From Candidatus Hodarchaeota archaeon (lineage in GTDB: Archaea > Asgardarchaeota > Lokiarchaeia > Sigyniarchaeales > SOKP01): DNA of 17,264 nt. A program made the position numbers and the translations under genes. Shown here piece by piece: positions 837 to 11,004 of this stretch (position 1 is the stretch's first letter; each line of letters opens with the position of its first letter). The stretch covers positions 1-17,264 of the forward strand of contig JBHLJY010000036.1 of NCBI GenBank assembly GCA_048887225.1. The letters run 5' to 3'. The notes beneath the pieces were generated by a model. The model was not told where the DNA came from and did not search any database. It saw nothing but the letters and a program-made list of their open reading frames with translations.

Positions 837-3014
837 TTACACCTCCATATGAAAAATTCTATGTTTATCAAGCTTAACCCGGAAACCTGGTGGAACTAAT
901 AAAGTTGTAGCAGGTGCCTCGATAACCGCGGGGCCATTTATAATATTTCCAGGGTTTAACAGATGCATTTCCCAGAGAGAAGCATTATGCCAATTTTTCC
1001 CCCAGAAAATATCTCTGTTCCCCTTAGATGCTATATCATCTGGTTTTTCTCCACTTAACTCGTGCTCGGGTAACTTAGGTTTTGGAACTGGCAGTACTCC
1101 CGTTCCTATTGCTTTAGTTACATGGTATCCAAGTTCGGGACTTTTTGTGCCTCTTCGGAATATCTGGTCAAAAAGATCGTCATATCTTTTGGTTAGTTCC
1201 TTTAAATCATCAGAATCATATCGTTGCATCTCTTCCGAGAAATGTATCCCCAATTCAGCAGTGGGGGACTGAACCTCTAAATCGTCAAACATGCCTAGAT
1301 ACTGAAAACGGACAGAAGGTTTAAATTCCATTTCATTAGGATCCCTCCCTTCTTTTTCTAACTCCTTGGCAATATTATTTTTCAATTCTGACCATGTGGA
1401 GTTGAGCATAGATGCCACAAATGTATTCATACCACCATCAGGAGGTAATATTAAATCCACAGTTTTTTCGTGTCTGTAAGAATAATCAGCACAAGCACAT
1501 CCAAATGCAGAAAAAGCAGGAGCCCATTCTGGTAATAAAATATCTTGAAATGTCATTCCTCTTGAATAACCTGCCACATGAAGTGGTCCACCTCCTCCAA
1601 AAGATATAAGTGTATAATTTTCTGGTCTAAATCCTAATCCTTGAATCATTCCATTAAGATGATTGCTCATATTGATTTCTATTAAATCTAAAGCACCTCT
1701 GGCAGTAATATATGGATCTGCCCTTAAAGGTTCTGCTAGTTGATTTTCGATATATTTATAAGCTCTTTCCTTATTTAATGGAACTTTCCCTCCAAGGAAA
1801 TAGTTTGGATTAAGATATCCAAGAATTAAACTACAATCGGTCATGGTAACCGTCTCCACACCAGATTTTTCATTACATACACCAATAAGATATCCTGCAC
1901 TTTCGGGACCAAACTCTAACCTTCCCGAAATATCGTTGTATCTTACGTACATACCTGTTCCTGCGCCTATGGAATCTAAAGCGATCATAGGTATGTTTAA
2001 TATGAACCTTCCAAGGGAACTTTCCCATTTGGTGGGAACATACCTCTCCATTATTAGACCTACATCGAAGCTCGTACCACCTACATCTGATGAAACCAAA
2101 TTCTTAATCCCATATTTTTCAGCTATAAATTTAGCTCCTATCATTCCACCAATAGGCCCTGAAACCATAGTTGTTATTAGTGATTTGTGGTATGGAGAAA
2201 TTGTTCCACCATAGGAGGTCAAAATTCTAAGTGGTGCTGGCACACCTTTTTCTTGTAATCGTTCAGCTATTTTTATTAATTGTTTTCTTGAAGGTTCTGC
2301 CGCATACTGTTCAATGACAAGAGCATTAAGTCTCGGAGTTTCTCCTCTTACTGGATTATGGACACTTGATAAAATAATAGGGATTTCTTTGCCTTTCTCC
2401 TTCATTATCTCTTTCGCAATTAATTCTACATTCATTTCATGTTTTGCGTTCATATATGAACAAAGGAGGCATACACAAATGCTTTCAACTCCCATATCGA
2501 GCAATTCTATAACCGCTTTCCTTACGTCATCCTTATAAAGTGGAACCAATTCATCGCCCCAAAAGTTAATTCTCCCACGTACACCCTTAATTTGCTTTAG
2601 TGGTATAAGTGGCTCAGGATGTTCGTGCTCTATGGCATGCAGTCGACCTCCATAATCAAGCCAAATCCAGCATTGAAGTGCTCTACCCAATCTAAGAAGG
2701 TCTTCAAAACCAGCATTTACGATTACACCAATATTACTATTTCCTTCCCTTTCCAAAAGTCTATTTAACATCGCAGTACCAGAATATACTAAAGCCTCTA
2801 CGGAATTGCCTGACGCTTCAAGAGTAGACTTCCATTGCCCTAATGAATCAGCTATCGAATTAAGAATACCTTCAGACTCATTCTCAGGAGTAGTAACCGC
2901 TTTCCCTACTGCAAAAGCGCCTTTTTCATCAATGATGAAAGAGTCAGTCATAGTCCCTCCCGTATCTAACGCTATTGCTTTTAAAAAAAATTTATCCTTT
3001 CCTATTTCAGTCAA
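837..3014 (-). CDS. acxA: Acetone carboxylase beta subunit (hydantoinase A/oxoprolinase family, ATP-binding)
   Basis: 725 aa with DTGGTMTD, YSGTAMLNR, SGPIGG, SSDVGGTSFD, SIGAGTG, FGGGGPLH, AFSAFG and GPAVIE motifs. TTG start is preceded by GAAGGA. Directly upstream of an AcxB-like gene. Confidence 0.9.
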   Translation of the reverse strand: MTEIGKDKFFLKAIALDTGGTMTDSFIIDEKGAFAVGKAVTTPENESEGILNSIADSLGQWKSTLEASGNSVEALVYSGTAMLNRLLEREGNSNIGVIVNAGFEDLLRLGRALQCWIWLDYGGRLHAIEHEHPEPLIPLKQIKGVRGRINFWGDELVPLYKDDVRKAVIELLDMGVESICVCLLCSYMNAKHEMNVELIAKEIMKEKGKEIPIILSSVHNPVRGETPRLNALVIEQYAAEPSRKQLIKIAERLQEKGVPAPLRILTSYGGTISPYHKSLITTMVSGPIGGMIGAKFIAEKYGIKNLVSSDVGGTSFDVGLIMERYVPTKWESSLGRFILNIPMIALDSIGAGTGMYVRYNDISGRLEFGPESAGYLIGVCNEKSGVETVTMTDCSLILGYLNPNYFLGGKVPLNKERAYKYIENQLAEPLRADPYITARGALDLIEINMSNHLNGMIQGLGFRPENYTLISFGGGGPLHVAGYSRGMTFQDILLPEWAPAFSAFGCACADYSYRHEKTVDLILPPDGGMNTFVASMLNSTWSELKNNIAKELEKEGRDPNEMEFKPSVRFQYLGMFDDLEVQSPTAELGIHFSEEMQRYDSDDLKELTKRYDDLFDQIFRRGTKSPELGYHVTKAIGTGVLPVPKPKLPEHELSGEKPDDIASKGNRDIFWGKNWHNASLWEMHLLNPGNIINGPAVIEAPATTLLVPPGFRVKLDKHRIFHMEV

Positions 3015-3172: not shown

Positions 3173-3910
3173 TTACTCCAAAAGTTCTTCCAATTCTTTA
3201 TCTGAGATAAATCCTTTATACTCCATTATTTTCTTAATTTCCTTGATAAGATTTGGCTTTGAACTAGATGACTCCGCTAAGTTATCCAAAGCTTCAAATT
3301 TTTTATTTAGTTCATTTAATTGGTTGATTTTGGTTTCCAAATTACTTTTATGACTTTCTAATTCTCTCTCTTTCTCTTTTAATAATTCTTCTTTCTGTTC
3401 TAACTCAGTTTTTAGAGAGGTTATTTCTCCCTTTTTGTCCAATCTCTCTCTTTTCAAATCTTTTTCGATTTTTATTATCTCCTCGTTATTCTTTTTTAAC
3501 TCATTTTCGAGATTTTTAAACTCTTCGTCTTTCTTTTTTAATTCACTAACTAATTTTTCTATTTCTTTATCCTTTTCTCCAATTGTTTCTTCTAATTTAG
3601 ATGTTCTTTCTAACGAGGAATCTAATTTAACTTCCCTTTCAGAAAATTTTGTTTCAGAAACTCTCAATTTTTTCTTTAAATCTGAAATTTCATTTTCTTG
3701 AGAAGAAAATTTATTTTTTAACTCGTTTAAATTTTTAACTGTAGCTGACAATTTTGCATTAGTCTCTATTAGCTTTTTCTTATTTTGCTCTAATTCTCTT
3801 GCCATATCGTTGACTTTTGCTCTAAACTCTAATAAAACTCTTCCTTCTATTTTTTGTTTCAATTCGGGTTTTTCTTTTGCTTTAATCCAATCGATACTAA
3901 TTTTTTTCAC
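3173..3910 (-). CDS. Coiled-coil protein with short conserved C-terminal helical motif (paralog 1); true start may be ATT at 3901
   Basis: E/K/L-rich heptad pattern over most of the length. Ends in LIKEIKKIMEYKGFISDKELEELLE, shared with 6292..6912. The annotated GTG is part of an AGGTGA SD-like sequence. Confidence 0.8.
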   Translation of the reverse strand: MKKISIDWIKAKEKPELKQKIEGRVLLEFRAKVNDMARELEQNKKKLIETNAKLSATVKNLNELKNKFSSQENEISDLKKKLRVSETKFSEREVKLDSSLERTSKLEETIGEKDKEIEKLVSELKKKDEEFKNLENELKKNNEEIIKIEKDLKRERLDKKGEITSLKTELEQKEELLKEKERELESHKSNLETKINQLNELNKKFEALDNLAESSSSKPNLIKEIKKIMEYKGFISDKELEELLE

Positions 3911-4123
3911 CTTCTAGTATGATTAAATTAGAAATTTCAATAAATAATAGAATACGACTGATTTGTTATACTAATTGTTGATTTATTAAATATTATTTTT
4001 GAATCTTTATATTTTTTAAAAAAATTAATCTTAACAAATCTACTTCCAAGCTTAATTTTTATACTTATTGTAATTAATTAATAATGTGAATTCCTAAAAA
4101 AATGTGGAAATATTGATAAACAG

Positions 4124-4140
4124 ATAACATATTATGTTAT
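4124..4140. promoter_or_regulatory. Perfect inverted repeat ATAACATA-T-TATGTTAT, candidate transcription-factor site
   Basis: 8-bp arms with a 1-nt spacer, in the divergent intergenic region 64 nt upstream of the GTPase fusion gene. The background is very AT-rich. Confidence 0.3.
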
Positions 4141-4204
4141 TAAAAAATGTAATGAATATATACATTCAAAAAATAAATTTTAATAAAATAAAGGTTGGAA
4201 AATA

Positions 4205-6250
4205 ATGGCTCTCGACAGAAAAAGGCTTAACGCTTTACTTCAATGGTACAGACAAGAAGTTGGTAAAGATTTCACAGCAGCATTTATTTTAGATCGGGAA
4301 GGTCAAGTTATTGAATATTTAACAAAGGCATCTAATGAAGAGATAGAAATCGAGTTTGTAGACAATATTAGAGAAATTATGGGATTAATCCTCAAACAAA
4401 TAGTAGAAAATTTTACGTTGGGTAAATTTGGAGCTGGATCTTTTGATACTTCTGAATATAGATTTATTTTTTGCGAAGCTGGACCTGATGCCATTTTTGT
4501 AACTTTATTAGATGCTTTAGCAATGGCCGAACCAGTCTTTCCGTATGCCTATTTAGCTGCTGAAAAAGTTGCTGGAATTTTTGAAGGAAAACCTATAAGT
4601 CCTGTTATTCCTAAACTAGTAGTTGATAAAAATATTCAAGATATCCAGCGGAAAGTTGACACCCTTCAGAAACTTAACGTTCCCTTTGCTGATTACGCAT
4701 ATAAATTAATCTTAGGGGGTGATGGTGCTGTAGGAAAAACAAGTATGATACAGCGTTTTGTAGAAGGTATTTTTCGCACGGATTATAAGGCAACAATTGG
4801 AACAGCCATAACTAAAAAAGAATGCAAATTTGATGGATTGGATTCCACAATTCGATTCGTTATTTGGGATTTAGCAGGACAACCACAGTTTAATCGAATA
4901 AGACATCATTATTATTCAAATGCTGAAGCCGCAATGCTAATTTATGATATAACTCGACGGGATACTTTCGATAATATAAAAAAGTGGTTTACTGAAATTA
5001 AAAAAGAAGCGGCACCACATTGCATACTAGTTCTAGTAGGAAATAAAAATGATTTAAAAAATACTAGGGCTGTGTCTACTTCTGAAGGTGAAAACCTAGC
5101 TAAAGAATTAGGAATATCTTACATTGAAACTTCAGCTATAACAGGTGAAAATATAAATGATGCATTTAAGATGCTTGCTCTACAATTAATTAAAAAATAT
5201 TTTGAGGTCATTGAGGTTTCAAAAATTAAAACTGATAAAATTCCGGTATTATCTCAAGAAGGTGATGATAAAATTGAAGTAAAAAAGGCTGAAAAAATCG
5301 CAGATTTGGGTGATTACGAAAAGGTTCTTATCACGGAATTGTGGGATAATGTAGAAAAATTTACTCCCTGGCTTGAAAAGAATATTGAATATCTTAATGA
5401 AGCTTTAGAGATTTCTTTGATTCCAATTGATCAAGAATCCCAAGATAGTATTTACTCTACAAGTATTTTTGCAGAAGATAAATTCGGCAATAAAGTCATA
5501 ATAGAAACTCAGTTTGGTAAAACAAACTCCGAATATTTAGAAAAAATTCTAAAATCTCTTGCATATTACGATGCAAAAATAGCAATTTGGATATGCGAAG
5601 AACCACTCCCAGAACATGAAGTTATGATGTCATGGTTAAATGAAAATAGCCTTGATAATGTGAATTTCTATCTTTGTAAAATAGAAATTTTTAAAATTGA
5701 TAATTCACCCCCAACACCATTATTGATTAAAGTCTGTGGGCCATCACCAGTTTTAAAAAGGATGAGAATTGCTAGTACGAAATTGAATTACATTGAAAGA
5801 AAAAGAATCGAATTTTGGGAGAAATTAATTGAAAAAATATATTCAAACTTTCCTGAACACGCTAATATCACCCCTCTTAGAGGTTCCTGGATTTTTAGTC
5901 CAACGGGAAAAAAAGGAATAAGATATGTCTATGTCATAAATCCAGACTCAGCAGCTATAATGTTATATTTTGACCACCCAAATCAAGAACTCAATCAAAA
6001 GAGATTCAAAGAGCTTGAATCCAAAAAAGAAGAAATAAATAATATGTTTGGGAGCATTTTTTACGATCTTTCAGGTTATTTAGCATGGAATTTTAATAAG
6101 AATATAAATTTCCAAAGCATTACATATAGATTTGAAGAGTGGGGATTGAAAGACGAAGAACAATGGGAAAATTTACAACTCAAAATGATAGATGCAATGA
6201 AATGCTTAGTTCAAGCTGTACAGAACCACATTGATAATTTAACTTATTAA
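4205..6250 (+). CDS. Multidomain protein: Roadblock/LC7-like domain + Rab-like small GTPase + degenerate PD-(D/E)XK nuclease-like domain + DUF4268-like domain
   Basis: G1 GDGAVGKT (4718-4741), G2 YKATIG, G3 WDLAGQ, G4 GNKND, G5 ETSA, plus RabF-like YYSNA and LIYDIT. Residues 1-130 show a Roadblock pattern (helix-AFILDREG-helix-three strands-helix). Residues ~368-515 have FTPWL..N...L...IETQF...IWI.....EH.....WLNE...FKIDNSPPTP. Residues ~535-677 run EFWEKL...W....QW...MIDAM. AGGTTGG precedes the ATG. Confidence 0.85.
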   Translation: MALDRKRLNALLQWYRQEVGKDFTAAFILDREGQVIEYLTKASNEEIEIEFVDNIREIMGLILKQIVENFTLGKFGAGSFDTSEYRFIFCEAGPDAIFVTLLDALAMAEPVFPYAYLAAEKVAGIFEGKPISPVIPKLVVDKNIQDIQRKVDTLQKLNVPFADYAYKLILGGDGAVGKTSMIQRFVEGIFRTDYKATIGTAITKKECKFDGLDSTIRFVIWDLAGQPQFNRIRHHYYSNAEAAMLIYDITRRDTFDNIKKWFTEIKKEAAPHCILVLVGNKNDLKNTRAVSTSEGENLAKELGISYIETSAITGENINDAFKMLALQLIKKYFEVIEVSKIKTDKIPVLSQEGDDKIEVKKAEKIADLGDYEKVLITELWDNVEKFTPWLEKNIEYLNEALEISLIPIDQESQDSIYSTSIFAEDKFGNKVIIETQFGKTNSEYLEKILKSLAYYDAKIAIWICEEPLPEHEVMMSWLNENSLDNVNFYLCKIEIFKIDNSPPTPLLIKVCGPSPVLKRMRIASTKLNYIERKRIEFWEKLIEKIYSNFPEHANITPLRGSWIFSPTGKKGIRYVYVINPDSAAIMLYFDHPNQELNQKRFKELESKKEEINNMFGSIFYDLSGYLAWNFNKNINFQSITYRFEEWGLKDEEQWENLQLKMIDAMKCLVQAVQNHIDNLTY

Positions 6251-6291
6251 ACCAGAGCTTTTAATAACTAATAGAATATTATCTAATTATT

Positions 6292-6912
6292 TTATTTCTC
6301 AATTATTTCTTCGAGTTCTTTATCGGTAATAAATCCTTTATACGCCATCACTTCTTTAATTTTTTTAATAAAAATTGGCGAAATTTGGTTTTCTAGACTC
6401 TTTGCCTCAAGCTCATGAATTCTGTCTTTTAGGGCATTTATTTGTATTACTTTTTTTTCTAAATCAGTCATAATTTTAAAAATTGCTTTATCCTTTTGTA
6501 AAATTGTGTGATCTAAGTCATTTTTATCTATCTCAATTTGAATTTCTTTCTGTTCTATTTCAGCGTTAAGTTTTTCTATTTCTTTATCTTTTTTTGTAAT
6601 TATATTTTTCAATTTAGCTAAATCATCAACTGAAGGGTAAAGTGTATCTTTATCTTTAGTAAATATTTCATCATTTTTTTTCATTTTAGACTTTAAATCT
6701 AAAATGGTTCTATTTAAATTTTTTATAGCGGAAGATAGTTTCTTAAAAATAATTACTAAATCATTTTCTGGGGTTAACACATTTTCTTTAATAGTAGATA
6801 AATCCGTCATATTTTGAGATAGTTGGCGTTCTAAGTCTTCTATTTTTAATTTAATCTCAAGGAGAAGATCCACTTCAGCTCTACTTTTCAAAAGCTCTTC
6901 AAGTCTGATCAT
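6292..6912 (-). CDS. Coiled-coil protein with short conserved C-terminal helical motif (paralog 2); true start may be ATT at 6936
   Basis: Heptad-rich. Contains KDKEIEKL and ends IKKIKEVMAYKGFITDKELEEIIEK, matching 3173..3910. GAGGTGA lies at 6949-6943. Confidence 0.8.
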   Translation of the reverse strand: MIRLEELLKSRAEVDLLLEIKLKIEDLERQLSQNMTDLSTIKENVLTPENDLVIIFKKLSSAIKNLNRTILDLKSKMKKNDEIFTKDKDTLYPSVDDLAKLKNIITKKDKEIEKLNAEIEQKEIQIEIDKNDLDHTILQKDKAIFKIMTDLEKKVIQINALKDRIHELEAKSLENQISPIFIKKIKEVMAYKGFITDKELEEIIEK

Positions 6913-7033
6913 AGTCTCTTCAAAATCAAATTTAATTTATTCTCACCTCAAAAAGTTAAAATATCAAGAATGTGTCAAATAAATATTCTCCGCAGCATTT
7001 AATAAATATTTCTCTAATAATACAATAATTAGC

Positions 7034-7813
7034 TTATAGCTTTTTGACTTTTTTAGCAATTTTCTTTTTTATTTTTTCGTATGAAGGGGGTGGTCCAGTT
7101 CTTACCTGCTTATCATCTATAAATAATCCATCGACAATACCCCATTCTAAAAAAACATCTCTCTTCATAGTATTAATCTCTCGAAATTCAACTTTATCAC
7201 CAAATTCCAAAGCTGCATTTTTAGCCCTTTCATAAACTATATTCTGTGCAGGACACCATCCGTTTATAAAGGAGGAAACTAAAACTTTACCTTGTATGGG
7301 TTCCGGTTTCTTCTTCTCTCTAATCCATCTTGGGGAAATTGCTTCATCGGTGAATGGTTTCCATAAAAGAACTTGCATACCTTGCTTGTCCACTTGAGTG
7401 TATCCATGTTTTTTAAACCATTTAGCTCTCATCCAAAACGGCAGAGATATGCCCCATGCTACCATGCCTTTAATCCCTTTAGATTTAGCATCATTTTCAG
7501 CAGCCTCAAGCAAAGCCGTACCTAACCCTTTTTTTTGGTAATTTCCTTTTCCCTCGTTATACCCATGTACCCAGATACAAAGAATAAAATATAAATCATT
7601 CCCTTCTGCAAATGATAGCTCAATAGGTAAATATTGTATCATCCCTCCAACTATACCATCATCGATAGCTATTTTTACATTAAGACCTTTTTCTTTCATT
7701 TTATTAAACCAAACCTCTTTATGGCTCCCTGCCTCCTTCATCTCTTCTGACCAATCTTCAAGGCATACAAAATATGTAGCCTTATGTCTATCTTCTAAAT
7801 CAATAATATTCAT
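7034..7813 (-). CDS. GNAT family N-acetyltransferase with C-terminal thioredoxin-like (YoaP-like) domain
   Basis: Acetyl-CoA-binding motif A YQKKGLGTALL, and motif B-like WFKKHGY. C-terminal FINGWCPAQN...VEFREIN...GLFIDD fits a thioredoxin-like pattern. Confidence 0.8.
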   Translation of the reverse strand: MNIIDLEDRHKATYFVCLEDWSEEMKEAGSHKEVWFNKMKEKGLNVKIAIDDGIVGGMIQYLPIELSFAEGNDLYFILCIWVHGYNEGKGNYQKKGLGTALLEAAENDAKSKGIKGMVAWGISLPFWMRAKWFKKHGYTQVDKQGMQVLLWKPFTDEAISPRWIREKKKPEPIQGKVLVSSFINGWCPAQNIVYERAKNAALEFGDKVEFREINTMKRDVFLEWGIVDGLFIDDKQVRTGPPPSYEKIKKKIAKKVKKL

Positions 7814-7899
7814 TTTTCATTTATCCTATTGATTGTTCTGCTTAATTTTTTTATTTTCGGAATATATTTTTATGGAAAAGGAAATATAATACAATAAAA

Positions 7900-9330
7900 A
7901 TGGAAGAAAGTAATTTAATTTTTACTATAAGCGGAATTCGCGGAATTTTTGGCAAGAATTTCAATATTGATATCATCAAGAAAATCGCAATTACATATGG
8001 ATTATGGCTTAGGAGCGAGGATAAAAAGGTTATAATAGGAAGAGATACAAGACCAAGTAGTAAAATTATTGAAAAAGCTATAATAGAAGGACTTACATCA
8101 GTTAATTGTAAAGTTGTTAATTTAGGAGGCTGTCCCACACCAATAATTATTTTTATGAAAAACAAGCTAAACATCGCTGGGGGATTAATTATTACAGGAT
8201 CTCATAATCCTCAAGAATGGAATGGGATAAAGCTACTTTCGGCTAAAACATTTTTAAACGATTCTGAAATGAAAATTATTACAAATAAAGTTAGTAAAAT
8301 CAAATTAAATAATTATAAAACGACTAAATCACATCAATCAGATATCTTATTAATGTCTGATATACTTCACGATTATATTCAGGGACTTCATGATTATCTT
8401 AATTTTAAAGAAATAAGAAATCAAAATGATCTTAAAGTAGTAATTGACACTGGAGCTGGCGCTGGAAAATTCGCAACCCCCCATATTTTAGAAAAACTTG
8501 GTTGTGAAATTAAGTTAATTAATAATAACTTTAATAAAAAAAACAAATTTCCCCGAGAAATAGAACCCGTAAAAAAAAATCTGGACGATTTAATTAAAAA
8601 ACTCTTTGAAGGAAAGTATGATATTGGATTTGCCCACGATAGTGATGCAGACAGGTTAGCCATTATTGGTGAAGATGGGACCTATTATCCAGAAGATATT
8701 AGTTTAGCTCTAATTACTGATTATTTTTTTAAACAATATCATCAAAAGAAGAAAGTAATCTTTGTAACTAATTTAGCGTCTTCTTTAATGTTTGAAGCAC
8801 TTGCCGATAAATATAATGCTCAAATTATTAGAACACCAATCGGCGAACGATTTTTAGCAGAAAAAATGATAGGTTTAATAGAAAAAGATAAACGGTCATC
8901 GATAATATTTGGGGGTGAAGGTTCATGCGGAGGAATAATGGTTCCTCAATTTAATAACACACGAGATGGGATATTTGCTGCCGCGAAAATTGTTGAAATT
9001 TTAGTAAAAACAAATGAAAAAATTTCAAATTTAGTTTATAAACTTCCAAAATTTTACGCCTTTAGAGAATATATTAATACCGAAAATAAAAATCTGAAAA
9101 AAATTATAAACCAATTAAAAAAAGATTTAATTAACGATGGAGCTAACGTTAATCAAATTGATATGGATTTAAGATTTGGTCAGGGAAGCAATTGGTTTGT
9201 TTTAATTCATCCATCAAATACCGAACCAATAATTCGAATAATTAGCGAGGCAAATAACAAGAATTTTGCTAAAAGAAATTTAACTAACACGTCAGAACGA
9301 GTAAAATCTATAGTTTCAAGAGTAAATTAA
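7900..9330 (+). CDS. Alpha-D-phosphohexomutase (phosphoglucosamine mutase/phosphomannomutase family)
   Basis: SGIRG, GRDTR, catalytic TGSHNP (S101), metal-binding DSDADR, GGEGSCGG sugar loop and PSNTEP motif. Confidence 0.93.
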   Translation: MEESNLIFTISGIRGIFGKNFNIDIIKKIAITYGLWLRSEDKKVIIGRDTRPSSKIIEKAIIEGLTSVNCKVVNLGGCPTPIIIFMKNKLNIAGGLIITGSHNPQEWNGIKLLSAKTFLNDSEMKIITNKVSKIKLNNYKTTKSHQSDILLMSDILHDYIQGLHDYLNFKEIRNQNDLKVVIDTGAGAGKFATPHILEKLGCEIKLINNNFNKKNKFPREIEPVKKNLDDLIKKLFEGKYDIGFAHDSDADRLAIIGEDGTYYPEDISLALITDYFFKQYHQKKKVIFVTNLASSLMFEALADKYNAQIIRTPIGERFLAEKMIGLIEKDKRSSIIFGGEGSCGGIMVPQFNNTRDGIFAAAKIVEILVKTNEKISNLVYKLPKFYAFREYINTENKNLKKIINQLKKDLINDGANVNQIDMDLRFGQGSNWFVLIHPSNTEPIIRIISEANNKNFAKRNLTNTSERVKSIVSRVN

Positions 9331-9346
9331 TTAATAAAAAAAGGAA

Positions 9347-10369
9347 TCATAACATATCCAGTATTGGACTGTTTTCTATTTTATAATAAATTAAGGCCAG
9401 AGCACCTCTAAGGCCAATATCATCTCTATAACTTGTCGTTTTTAGTTTGGGTGGATTATTTATCGTAAATATAATTGGATTATTTTCAAATTGTTCAATT
9501 AAAGGTGGTAAAATTTGTTCCTTATCTTTCATCATAGCACCTCCAAAATATATTGAAGTACAATCATAAAAATTATTTACAAGACCGATACCTACTTTCA
9601 TATAAAATATACACTGACCTACAATTTTTTTGGAAAGTTCATCTCCTTCTCTTGCTGCTTGAAATACCTCTTTAGCAGTTATTTTTGAGGTATCATTGTC
9701 TACTATCTTCATTAAAATATCAGCATTTAAGTTGCCTTCCTTTATTGCATCTATAGCCCTATTTATTACTCCAGTTCCTGAACTATAAACCTCCCAACAA
9801 CCATATGCTCCACAATTGCATTGAAAAATACTTTTAGGCTCGACTAAACCATGACCTACTTCGGCAGCATTTCCGTCCTTTCCCAATAATAAATGTCCAT
9901 TACAAATTGCACCTCCTCCTATCCCCGTTGATACTGTTATATAAACTAAATTTTCTTTCTCATCTTCACTTGCTTCGAAATAATGAACTCCTAACACAGC
10001 CGCATTACAGTCGTTAATTAGATATATAGGAACATCGGGAAATTTGGCGTGAATCGGTTCTTTTAAAGGTATTTCCCTAAATCCAAGATTGGCATTATTA
10101 AAAACCTCACCTGTCTCCATGTCTATAGGTCCTGCTGAAGCGAGTCCAATTCCTAATATTTGATCTGCACTAATATTGTTTTCTTTTAATAACTCGGAAA
10201 TCAATATGCAAACTGAATTGCTAATTGAAAACTTCGTTTCTTTTGGCGTGTTAACTACTTTTGTTTTGATATTCTCTTCTTTTAAATCTTGTGTACAAAT
10301 TGCTACACGAATCCAAGTTCCACCGATGTCTACTCCTATTATATATTTTTGAGTTTGATTTTCTCTCAT
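9347..10369 (-). CDS. ROK family sugar kinase (glucokinase-like)
   Basis: GVDIGGT, NDCNAA, STGIGGG and the Zn motif EVGH...CNCGAYGCWE. There is no N-terminal HTH, so kinase rather than repressor. Confidence 0.92.
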   Translation of the reverse strand: MRENQTQKYIIGVDIGGTWIRVAICTQDLKEENIKTKVVNTPKETKFSISNSVCILISELLKENNISADQILGIGLASAGPIDMETGEVFNNANLGFREIPLKEPIHAKFPDVPIYLINDCNAAVLGVHYFEASEDEKENLVYITVSTGIGGGAICNGHLLLGKDGNAAEVGHGLVEPKSIFQCNCGAYGCWEVYSSGTGVINRAIDAIKEGNLNADILMKIVDNDTSKITAKEVFQAAREGDELSKKIVGQCIFYMKVGIGLVNNFYDCTSIYFGGAMMKDKEQILPPLIEQFENNPIIFTINNPPKLKTTSYRDDIGLRGALALIYYKIENSPILDML

Positions 10370-10617: not shown

Positions 10618-11004
10618 TTGAAAGAACATTTTTTTGATTTTTGGCTTTTTTCTAAAGATGGTCTACCCATTGCAGAATTTATTGGTGAGCAAGCCCTGGA
10701 TAAATCGATCCTTGGAGGTCTAGTATCAGCTATCAAGATCTTTAGTCAACAAATTACAAGTAAAGGATTACAGAGTTTATTGTTGGAAGATAATAAATTC
10801 ACATTCATTTCTGCTCTTGAAGGTAGCGCAATTCTGGTTTGTAGAACAAGTTCAAAAGTTAAAGAAAAAAAGATTCAAAAAATTTGTAATAATATCGTCA
10901 AGATCTTTGAAGAATTATACACTCCTAATGATATCATAAATTGGAACGGAGAAGTCAGCTTTTTTGATAAATTTAGAGAGAAATTAGAGAATTATATTAA
11001 ATAA
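10618..11004 (+). CDS. Small stand-alone longin-like domain protein (Asgard type)
   Basis: 128 aa. FWLFSKDGLPI hairpin, D..ILGGLVSAIKIFSQQI helix, three strands, then helices (IVKIFEELY...FFDKFREKLE), giving the beta-beta-alpha-beta-beta-beta-alpha-alpha longin order. TTG start. Confidence 0.7.
   Translation: MKEHFFDFWLFSKDGLPIAEFIGEQALDKSILGGLVSAIKIFSQQITSKGLQSLLLEDNKFTFISALEGSAILVCRTSSKVKEKKIQKICNNIVKIFEELYTPNDIINWNGEVSFFDKFREKLENYIK

What the first reader, a model, noticed from the sequence alone, without database searches (positions are those of the whole stretch)
3173..6936. Two paralogous coiled-coil genes bracket the GTPase fusion: candidate three-gene module
Seen: the two minus-strand proteins are collinear paralogs. 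N-terminal LKQKIEGRVLLEFRAKVNDMAREL vs LKSRAEVDLLLEIKLKIEDLERQL; identical KDKEIEKL; LETKINQLNEL vs LEKKVIQINAL; near-identical C-termini. DNA similarity persists (ataaatcctttatac at ~3207 and ~6329). The GTPase gene sits between them on the opposite strand, divergent from one and convergent with the other. Known: eukaryotic small GTPases often act through long coiled-coil effectors or tethers with short terminal binding motifs. Inference: either a GTPase plus coiled-coil effector/filament system, or a tandem duplication later split by insertion.
Basis: partly seen in the sequence, partly recalled or inferred. Interest (0 to 1): 0.72.

Follow-up and report, generated by a model that had tools for sequence, protein, structure and literature searches.

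The report
Split coiled-coil gene array around GTPase
Two genuine sister genes for rod-shaped coiled-coil proteins, from an undescribed family found only in one order of Asgard (Loki-type) archaea, flank a GTPase gene, but only in this species and its closest relative, so the trio is a recently reshuffled gene array rather than a conserved three-gene machine.

Summary
The two minus-strand genes, CC1 (3173-3910) and CC2 (6292-6936), are real collinear paralogs (BLASTP 2e-17). They share a 15-nt string and flank the Roadblock-Ras-DUF4268 GTPase gene (4205-6250), one divergent from it and one convergent with it.

Both belong to a head-rod-tail coiled-coil family. It was found in all 41 genomes of the order that were searched, but not convincingly in 157 genomes from other families of the phylum. 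This scan has met the family before on other DNA; it has no Pfam model and no database name.

The family usually lies in tandem arrays of 2-4 genes. The CC-GTPase-CC order occurs only here and in a relative whose GTPase is 93% identical. In other species of the genus the array is unbroken and the same GTPase sits one or two genes outside it. In seven other genera the GTPase ortholog has no such neighbour. So the case is an old array split by a local rearrangement, not a module.

One hint remains. Ras-type GTPase genes lie next to these arrays more often than the 4.3% background: 9 of 66 loci, in 3 independent contexts. This is suggestive only.

About 30% of family members appear to start at ATT or ATA.

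The parts
3173..3910 (-). CC1, a head-rod-tail coiled-coil protein. It is 245 aa from the GTG at 3910, or more likely 242 aa from the ATT at 3901. The stop is at 3173-3175.
   Evidence: ORF and translation. The head profile matches at 2.3e-20 and the tail profile at 1.5e-13. The AF2 model has mean pLDDT 87.8.
3797..3901 (-). CC1 head box, about 35 residues: M-x-I-D-W, then K-P, then K-V-E-G-R-x-L-L.
   Evidence: Alignments A4 and A5 show W5, P12, K17, G20 and L23 as nearly invariant. AF2 gives a short helix at 5-10, a loop, and the start of the rod at residue 20.
3266..3844 (-). CC1 rod: one continuous helix, residues 20-212, about 29 nm if straight.
   Evidence: AF2 and heptad periodicity with z 8.1. 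Only sub-threshold hits to coiled-coil Pfam families.
3176..3256 (-). CC1 tail box: a helix-turn-helix built around K-G-F-[LIV]-[ST]-D-K-E-L-E. It includes the shared 15-mer at 3207-3221.
3911..4204 (.). AT-rich divergent intergenic region between CC1 and the GTPase gene.
   Evidence: Sequence. GC is about 0.24-0.25. Promoters were not mapped.
4205..6250 (+). GTPase fusion, 681 aa. Roadblock/MglB-fold domain (about residues 1-130), Ras-family G domain (167-328), an unassigned middle domain, and DUF4268 (534-675).
   Evidence: Pfam gives Ras 1.6e-51 and DUF4268 8.7e-18. The N-domain AF2 model has pLDDT 83.7 and alpha-beta-beta-alpha-beta-beta-beta-alpha topology. Its Foldseek top hits are MglB and Asgard Roadblock structures, at E 2e-6 and probability 1.00. 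Orthologs of 675-693 aa occur in 8 relatives and forms of 510-513 aa in 2.
6251..6291 (.). 41-bp spacer between the convergent 3' ends of the GTPase gene and CC2.
6292..6936 (-). CC2, a fast-evolving family member with a degenerate head and an intact tail. It is 214 aa from the ATT at 6936, or 206 aa from the ATG at 6912.
   Evidence: The tail profile matches at 2.6e-13 but the head profile only at 0.0011. It has a long branch of 1.25 in the family tree. dN/dS is 0.35 against G002.
6295..6381 (-). CC2 tail box, including the shared 15-mer at 6329-6343.

Best explanation
CC1 and CC2 are two anciently diverged members of a coiled-coil family restricted to one order of Loki-type Asgard archaea. 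Each has three parts. The first is a short, highly conserved N-terminal head (M-x-I-D-W, then K-P, then K-V-E-G-R-x-L-L-D-L-R). The second is a helical heptad rod of about 190 residues, roughly 29 nm long. The third, after a short flexible linker, is a small helix-turn-helix tail built around K-G-F-[LIV]-[ST]-D-K-E-L-E. Other family members keep the head and rod but carry a different tail. One such tail is the Loki 'Zn domain', which also ends the Lokiarchaeal gelsolin 2DGel. The genes normally lie in head-to-tail arrays. In the common ancestor of this genome and its nearest relative, a local rearrangement moved the neighbouring Roadblock-Ras-DUF4268 GTPase gene between two array members. The array's usual convergent neighbour, a small GTPase of about 200 aa, was lost in the same lineage. 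Shown here: the paralogy, the family, its taxonomic range, the array habit, and the shallow origin of the CC-GTPase-CC order. Also shown: the three genes cannot form one transcript, because one pair is divergent and the other convergent. Inferred only: the proteins act as dimeric rod-like spacers or adaptors, with the conserved head docking to one common partner and the interchangeable tail selecting a second partner. On this reading the GTPase in the window is a neighbour by accident of rearrangement, not an obligate partner.
For: Paralogy. Further paralogs in the same genome: CC3 on contig C32 has both boxes, and CC4 on contig C1 has the head, the rod and a Zn-ribbon tail. The family is present in 41 of 41 genomes of the order at 1-11 matched stretches each, with many tandem arrays. 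The head profile hits 40/40 and 3/3 genomes in the two sampled families of the order, against 1/157 elsewhere in the phylum; that one hit is broken by stop codons and has E 4e-4. No Pfam family matches the whole proteins or either box, and no informative database name was found. Structure. Synteny: the same trio occurs only in G002, whose GTPase is 93% identical. G001 has PGM, fusion GTPase, GNAT, three CC genes, then a convergent 201-aa Ras. G004, G007 and G008 have three contiguous CC genes and the same small Ras; it is adjacent in G007 and G008 and one gene away in G004. G006 and G009 have one CC gene with that Ras close by, adjacent in G009. The fusion orthologs of seven other genera (G012, G014, G015, G017, G021, G023, G024) have no CC gene nearby. 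CC1 and CC2 fall in different subclades that have counterparts in other species of the genus. The small Ras has no ortholog-level match in G000 or G002; the best hit is 41-42% identical and is the ortholog of a different G001 gene. A profile built from the CC4-type Zn tails hits the Zn domain of this genome's 2DGel ortholog at 6e-14, and that ortholog matches PDB 7WHG at 1e-153. Akil et al. 2022 (PMC9433394) describe this Zn domain at the C-termini of 'unrelated multi-domain proteins' in Loki.
Against: Ras-family genes lie next to these arrays more often than the genome background. They do so at 9 of 66 loci, against 4.3% of genes in G000 (raw binomial P 0.002, loci not independent). Collapsed to independent contexts this is 3 of 10-20 locus types (P about 0.008-0.06). 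In the G000/G002 lineage, the position convergent with a CC gene is again held by a Ras-type GTPase after the small Ras was lost. That pattern would also fit selection for such a pairing. The spacer/adaptor function is pure inference: no partner of head or tail has been identified. The deep nodes of the family tree are poorly supported, so the exact order of rearrangement steps is not resolved.
Confidence: 0.7

Rival explanations
1. The tailed coiled-coil rods are effectors or tethers of Ras-family small GTPases, as golgins and other coiled-coil Rab effectors are in eukaryotes, or AglZ and FrzS are for MglA in Myxococcus. On this reading the gene neighbourhood reflects that link. In this genome the Roadblock-Ras fusion has taken over the slot of the lost small GTPase.
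For: Three independent contexts place a Ras-type gene directly beside a CC gene. The first is the roughly 200-aa Ras convergent with the last array member in genus g1 (G001, G007, G008, G009; nearby in G004 and G006). The second is a different 180-aa Ras, 30-31% identical to the first, convergent with a CC gene in genus g4 (G012, G024) and three genes away in G011. The third is a 356-aa Ras gene co-directional with two CC genes in G026. In addition, the G001 array is bracketed by the fusion on one side and the small Ras on the other. The enrichment over the 4.3% background is given. The small Ras is lost exactly where the fusion has moved in.
Against: Most locus types of the family (at least 7) have no GTPase neighbour. 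Where pairs exist they are mostly convergent, not co-transcribed. The GTPases involved are different paralogs. Each genome carries 35 to more than 67 Ras-type genes, so chance adjacency is common and the collapsed statistic is marginal. The fusion's orthologs outside the genus have no CC neighbour.
Confidence: 0.17
2. The paralogs form a homo- or heteropolymeric filament of intermediate-filament or crescentin type. The head and tail boxes drive longitudinal assembly, and the array supplies co-polymerising subunits.
For: The proteins have a head-rod-tail layout and a long heptad rod, several paralogs per genome arranged in arrays, and sub-threshold similarity to Rod_CreS and Filament models.
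Against: The Pfam scores are far below the cut-offs (Rod_CreS 20 bits against 100) and are typical of any coiled coil. Rod length is not conserved: members with the K-G-F tail range from 128 to 314 aa. Array size varies from 1 to 4 among species of one genus. Tails are exchanged for unrelated modules, which fits adaptors better than a polymer lattice.
Confidence: 0.08
3. The similarity is a by-product of low-complexity K/E/L-rich coiled-coil composition, and the two genes are unrelated.
For: Coiled coils often give spurious matches, and the first wide protein search was swamped by them.
Against: The alignment is collinear and composition-corrected. The tail box is specific: in this genome it is found in only three proteins. 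There is an identical 15-mer in the tail coding region. Head and tail profiles recover the same genes across 41 genomes.
Confidence: 0.01

Closest known systems
Loki 'Zn domain' proteins, typified by Lokiarchaeota gelsolin 2DGel (PDB 7WHG; Akil et al. 2022, PMC9433394)
   Same: The sister paralog CC4 (G000 contig C1) ends in the same (C-x-x-C)2 zinc module with a tyrosine-bearing loop. A profile built from CC4-type tails hits the Zn domain of this genome's 2DGel ortholog at 6e-14. The paper notes that the domain sits at the C-termini of unrelated multi-domain Loki proteins.
   Different: CC1 and CC2 carry the K-G-F tail instead and have no gelsolin or zinc module. The paper does not describe the coiled-coil family, its head box or its arrays. 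It saw no association of the Zn domain with F-actin.
Eukaryotic coiled-coil small-GTPase effectors and tethers (golgins, Rab11-FIP, EEA1-type), from general knowledge
   Same: They are long dimeric rods with short terminal binding motifs. Here a Ras-family gene is the neighbour, and Ras-type neighbours recur in relatives.
   Different: There is no sequence relationship: only sub-threshold coiled-coil hits. No GRIP, GRAB, RBD or FYVE-type motif was detected. Binding is untested, and the neighbourhood is not conserved for this GTPase.
Myxococcus MglA/MglB polarity module with its coiled-coil partners AglZ and FrzS, from general knowledge; MglB structures 1J3W, 3T12, 6IZW
   Same: The fusion's N-domain has the MglB/Roadblock fold joined to a Ras-like G domain. 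MglA-GTP is reported to act through proteins with long coiled coils.
   Different: Here Roadblock and the G domain are one polypeptide, extended by an unassigned domain and DUF4268. The coiled-coil neighbours have no receiver domain and no homology to AglZ or FrzS. No motility context is evident.
Crescentin and intermediate-filament-like proteins (Pfam Rod_CreS PF19220, Filament PF00038)
   Same: The architecture is head-rod-tail with a heptad rod.
   Different: The scores are well below the curated cut-offs. Rod length is variable, tails are interchangeable, and there is no stutter or linker pattern that was tested.

Membership tests
Lokiarchaeial head-rod-tail coiled-coil family (undescribed; defined here and in earlier notes of this scan) | N-terminal head box (M-x-I-D-W, K-P, K-V-E-G-R-x-L-L-D-L-R) | tested here: met
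   CC1 matches the head profile at 2.3e-20. CC2 does not: it scores only 0.0011, through rod residues, with W changed to F and the P lost. CC2 is therefore a member with a degenerate head.
Lokiarchaeial head-rod-tail coiled-coil family | Long uninterrupted heptad rod | tested here: met
   AF2 models a helix over residues 20-212 with pLDDT above 90. Heptad contrast has z 8.1 and 5.9.
Lokiarchaeial head-rod-tail coiled-coil family, K-G-F-tail subfamily | C-terminal box, hydrophobic-x-x-I-K-x-x-M-x-x-K-G-F-[LIV]-[ST]-D-K-E-L-E | tested here: met
   The tail profile matches CC1 at 1.5e-13, CC2 at 2.6e-13 and CC3 at 2.8e-14, and no other protein in the genome below E 0.09. 43 further members were found in relatives.
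Conserved GTPase plus coiled-coil gene module | The CC-GTPase-CC order is kept across relatives that carry the GTPase ortholog | tested here: not met
   Only 1 of 10 relatives with the ortholog shares it: G002, whose GTPase is 93% identical.
Conserved GTPase plus coiled-coil gene module | The genes form one transcription unit | tested here: not met
   One pair is divergent and the other convergent.
Small-GTPase effector (coiled-coil type) | Nucleotide-dependent binding to a GTPase | not testable with these tools
   This needs pull-downs with GTP- and GDP-locked proteins.
Intermediate filament / crescentin | Match to PF00038 or PF19220 above the curated cut-off | tested here: not met
   Rod_CreS scores 20.1 bits against a cut-off of 100 for CC1. 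Filament scores 24.3 against 40 for CC3.
SAP/HeH-type helix-extended-helix motif (considered for the tail from memory) | Sequence match to SAP or a related Pfam model | tested here: not met
   No such hit at E up to 10 for three tail segments. AF2 shows a helix-turn-helix at modest confidence, pLDDT 63-68.
Roadblock/LC7 (MglB) fold, for the GTPase N-domain | Alpha-beta-beta-alpha-beta-beta-beta-alpha fold matching solved MglB or Roadblock structures | tested here: met
   The topology is shown. Foldseek gives MglB 1J3W at E 2e-6 with target TM 0.71-0.73, and Asgard Roadblock structures 9JUE, 7F8M and 7YH1. Pfam Robl_LC7 did not match by sequence.

The most novel reading that the evidence does not exclude
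The K-G-F-tailed rods are coiled-coil effectors or tethers for Ras/Rab-like GTPases in Loki-type Asgard archaea. The recurring convergent CC-GTPase gene pairs are the genomic trace of this link. They involve three different GTPase paralogs, and in this genome the fusion fills the slot of a lost small Ras. If true, this would be a prokaryotic counterpart of golgin-type or Rab-effector tethering, in the closest relatives of eukaryotes.
Probability: 0.15. Interest if true: 0.75.

Novelty: new variant of a known kind. Interest (0 to 1): 0.35.

Why it matters
Asgard archaea carry dozens of eukaryote-like small GTPases whose partners are almost entirely unknown. A conserved GTPase-plus-tether module would have offered a direct way into that question. 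The comparison shows that this trio is not such a module. That result prevents over-reading a single genome's gene order.

It does place the two genes in a sizeable, unnamed, order-restricted family of roughly 30-nm rods. The family has one conserved head and interchangeable tails, and one of those tails is shared with the actin regulator 2DGel. The family is a reasonable candidate for a structural adaptor set in cells known for actin-based protrusions.

The modest excess of Ras-type neighbours gives a cheap, specific binding experiment to run. The ATT/ATA start sites matter for annotation. Gene callers that allow only ATG, GTG and TTG truncate the conserved head in roughly a third of family members.

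Tried and rejected
1. A complex prediction of the fusion GTPase (residues 1-340, alignment A3) with CC1 (alignment A2) returned 'no answer': score 0.00 against a mark of 0.32, and the controls were not run. It counts neither for nor against binding.

2. A wide protein search with whole CC1 was swamped by coiled-coil words and gave one hit. A head-only search gave four unnamed or generically named proteins.

3. Pfam searches on whole proteins and on isolated head and tail segments gave nothing above the cut-offs. A SAP/HeH reading of the tail was not supported by sequence.

4. The ESM Atlas gave only generic coiled-coil look-alikes and one unnamed Promethearchaeota cluster.

5. A PDB sequence search with CC4 gave only coiled-coil noise and no direct 7WHG hit. 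The Zn-domain link needed an iterated profile within the genome.

Hence there is no genomic context for the single database homolog P0004, and no expression or transcript-end data.

7. Literature searches found no description of this family.

8. The family tree did not resolve the deep branching, and one row (G002 CC2) was entered in the wrong frame by my error and should be ignored. The exact rearrangement path was therefore left open.

9. Automatic single-linkage grouping of loci by shared flanking families over-merged them, putting 51 loci into one group. For that reason a range of 10-20 locus types is quoted rather than one number.


Full report
WHAT IS THERE. The window is a whole 17.3-kb contig (G000:C36). 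Three genes sit between a hydantoinase gene (837-3014) and a GNAT/PGM/ROK block (7034-10369). CC1 is at 3173-3910 on the minus strand. A 681-aa GTPase fusion is at 4205-6250 on the plus strand. CC2 is at 6292-6936 on the minus strand. CC1 and the GTPase gene diverge across 294 AT-rich bases. The GTPase gene and CC2 converge with 41 bases between their stops.

CHECK OF THE OBSERVATION. All quoted peptides are in the translations. BLASTP with compositional adjustment gives E 2e-17 and 31% identity, collinear from head to tail. The 15-mer occurs exactly at 3207 and 6329, with 0.03 matches expected, and encodes the Y-K-G-F-I core of the shared C-terminal box. AF2 with a 41-row alignment models CC1 as one helix from residue 20 to 212 (pLDDT above 90). 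This is followed by a three-residue break and a small helix-turn-helix tail. Heptad a/d contrast is far above shuffles, with z 8.1 and 5.9. Against the closest relative, both genes show dN/dS of about 0.35-0.38, compared with 0.14 for the GTPase. They are real genes, though less constrained. The one caveat is that CC2's N-terminal box has decayed.

THE FAMILY. The same genome holds two more relatives. CC3 on contig C32 has both boxes. CC4 on contig C1 has the same head and rod but a (C-x-x-C)2 zinc-ribbon tail. A profile of the family finds it in all 41 genomes of the order that were searched, with 1-11 matched stretches per genome. A profile of the 48-residue head alone hits 40/40 and 3/3 genomes of the two sampled families of the order. 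Elsewhere in the phylum it hits 1 of 157 genomes, and that hit is broken by stop codons at E 4e-4. No Pfam model matches the proteins or either box. Wide protein searches return no meaningful name, and I found no paper on the family.

Earlier notes of this scan describe what appears to be the same head-rod-tail family in other genomes. They also pointed to the Loki 'Zn domain' of gelsolin 2DGel. I tested that lead here. A profile built from the CC4-type zinc tails of this genome hits the C-terminus of a 334-aa protein at 6e-14. That protein has two gelsolin repeats and matches PDB 7WHG, Loki 2DGel, at 1e-153. Akil et al. 2022 state that this domain ends 'unrelated multi-domain proteins' in Loki and that they saw no association of it with F-actin. 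In G000 the K-G-F tail occurs only in CC1, CC2 and CC3.

IS THE TRIO A MODULE? Orthologs of the GTPase fusion were sought using its non-Ras C-terminal half as the query. They were found in 10 of 40 relatives; an eleventh match, in G035, is a weak partial one (E 4e-12). I fetched and annotated their surroundings. Only G002, whose GTPase is 93% identical, has CC2-GTPase-CC1. In G001, of the same genus, the order is ROK, a membrane-protein gene, PGM, fusion, GNAT, CC, CC, CC, then a convergent 201-aa Ras. In G008 the fusion again lies between PGM and GNAT, while three contiguous CC genes and the small Ras lie on another contig. G004 and G007 also have three contiguous CC genes and the same small Ras (adjacent in G007, one gene away in G004). 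G006 and G009 have ROK, one CC gene and that Ras, which is adjacent only in G009.

In seven other genera the fusion ortholog has no CC gene within reach. Several of them instead have a Roadblock-like small gene upstream, and three have a gene of about 186-189 aa downstream that resembles a KptA/Tpt1 RNA 2'-phosphotransferase (named from its sequence, not tested). Twenty-nine of 40 relatives show no match to the fusion's C-terminal half, yet all carry the CC family. The interrupted array is therefore a derived state of one shallow lineage. All genes keep their orientation, so the simplest description is an exchange of position between the fusion gene and the adjacent GNAT-CC block. Loss of a third CC gene, the small Ras and its 239-aa neighbour accompanied it.

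The family tree puts CC1 and CC2 in different subclades that have counterparts in other species, with CC2 on a long branch. They are old paralogs, not a fresh duplicate. The small Ras has no ortholog-level match in G000 (98% complete) or G002.

THE RESIDUAL GTPase SIGNAL. I fetched 60 further loci around family members in 40 genomes. I scored them with a Ras profile built from this genome. A Ras-type gene is the immediate neighbour of a CC array, or lies inside it, at 9 of 66 loci. In G000, 4.3% of genes have a Ras neighbour (63 Ras-type genes among about 2,860 genes). The raw binomial P is 0.002, but the loci are not independent.

Collapsed, there are three separate contexts. The first is the roughly 200-aa Ras of genus g1, together with the fusion. 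The second is a different 180-aa Ras, 30-31% identical to the first, convergent with a CC gene in genus g4. The third is a 356-aa Ras gene co-directional with two CC genes in G026. These three fall among 10 locus types by automatic over-merged grouping, or about 20 by my manual reading. That gives P of about 0.008 to 0.06. This is suggestive, not established. I keep a GTPase-effector reading at 0.17 for that reason.

THE GTPase ITSELF. Pfam recognises the Ras domain (1.6e-51) and DUF4268 (8.7e-18) but not the N-domain. AF2 on an 11-row alignment gives the alpha-beta-beta-alpha-beta-beta-beta-alpha Roadblock topology. Foldseek ranks MglB and Asgard Roadblock structures first (E 2e-6, probability 1.00). 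The 'Roadblock-Ras fusion' label is therefore supported by fold.

VERDICT. The paralogy is real and belongs to an undescribed, order-restricted head-rod-tail coiled-coil family that this scan has met before on other DNA. The three-gene arrangement is a recent local rearrangement of a tandem array, not a conserved module. A general functional link between these rods and Ras-type GTPases remains possible but unproven. The most likely role is a dimeric spacer or adaptor, with a common head partner and tail-specific second partners. This role is inferred from architecture and from the shared Zn tail with 2DGel, not shown.

LIMITS. The complex prediction gave no answer. Gene calls in relatives are my own simple ORF calls, so small intervening ORFs (for example in G006) may be spurious.

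Noticed in passing
window 3901 (CC1) and 6936 (CC2); 73 family members in loci L030-L092, C32 and L023: The codon at the homologous start position (two codons before I-D-W) was tallied for the 67 of 73 family members where it could be read. It is ATG in 30, ATT in 16, ATA in 5, TTG in 5, GTG in 4 and another codon in 7. A GGTGA-type Shine-Dalgarno motif usually lies 5-8 nt upstream. In about 15 of the 21 ATT/ATA cases, an in-frame stop lies within two codons upstream. ATT and ATA therefore look like genuine start codons. Standard callers would truncate the conserved head, or for CC1 pick a GTG that lies inside the SD (for the window).
   Followed up: partly
G000 contig C1, locus L093:7298-14306: The zinc-tailed paralog CC4 has a neighbourhood conserved across the order. 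It is divergent from two membrane proteins with hexapeptide repeats. A calcineurin-like phosphoesterase, a THUMP/ThiI-like protein and a ThiS-like small protein follow. In G000, a 311-aa Gtr1/RagA-like GTPase follows these, and a related gene of about 310-337 aa lies in or near the same locus in roughly ten other genomes.
   Followed up: partly
G001 locus L030:12422-13027 and its orthologs in G004, G006, G007, G008, G009: A small Ras of about 200 aa lies convergent with, or close to, the last CC gene of the array in six species of the genus. It has no ortholog-level match in G000 or G002. Its best hit there (41-42% identity) is the ortholog of another G001 gene.
   Followed up: yes
window 837-3014 versus L023:9789-11963: Synonymous divergence between G000 and G002 is very uneven across this contig. 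The hydantoinase gene has dS 1.04 and PGM 0.57. CC1, CC2, the GTPase and ROK have 0.10-0.24. This suggests recombination or replacement of some segments between the two lineages.
   Followed up: no
window 7034-7813: The GNAT acetyltransferase gene lies between CC2 and PGM here. It is missing at that place in G002. In G001 and G008 it sits between the fusion GTPase and the following genes, which in G001 are the CC array.
   Followed up: no
L030:6791-8323 (G001) and L032:4157-5698 (G008): In two species of the genus the fusion GTPase is only 510-513 aa and ends after the middle domain, so it lacks DUF4268. Other relatives keep forms of 675-693 aa.
   Followed up: no
G000 contig C2:165886-166887 (L095): This genome encodes a close ortholog of Loki 2DGel (PDB 7WHG, E 1e-153), including the C-terminal Zn domain. 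The same Zn domain also ends several other proteins and occurs as a stand-alone 72-aa ORF.
   Followed up: partly
window 10618-11004: This 128-aa ORF has a weak Roadblock/LC7 match (E 0.011, below the cut-off). Both are syntenic in G002.
   Followed up: no
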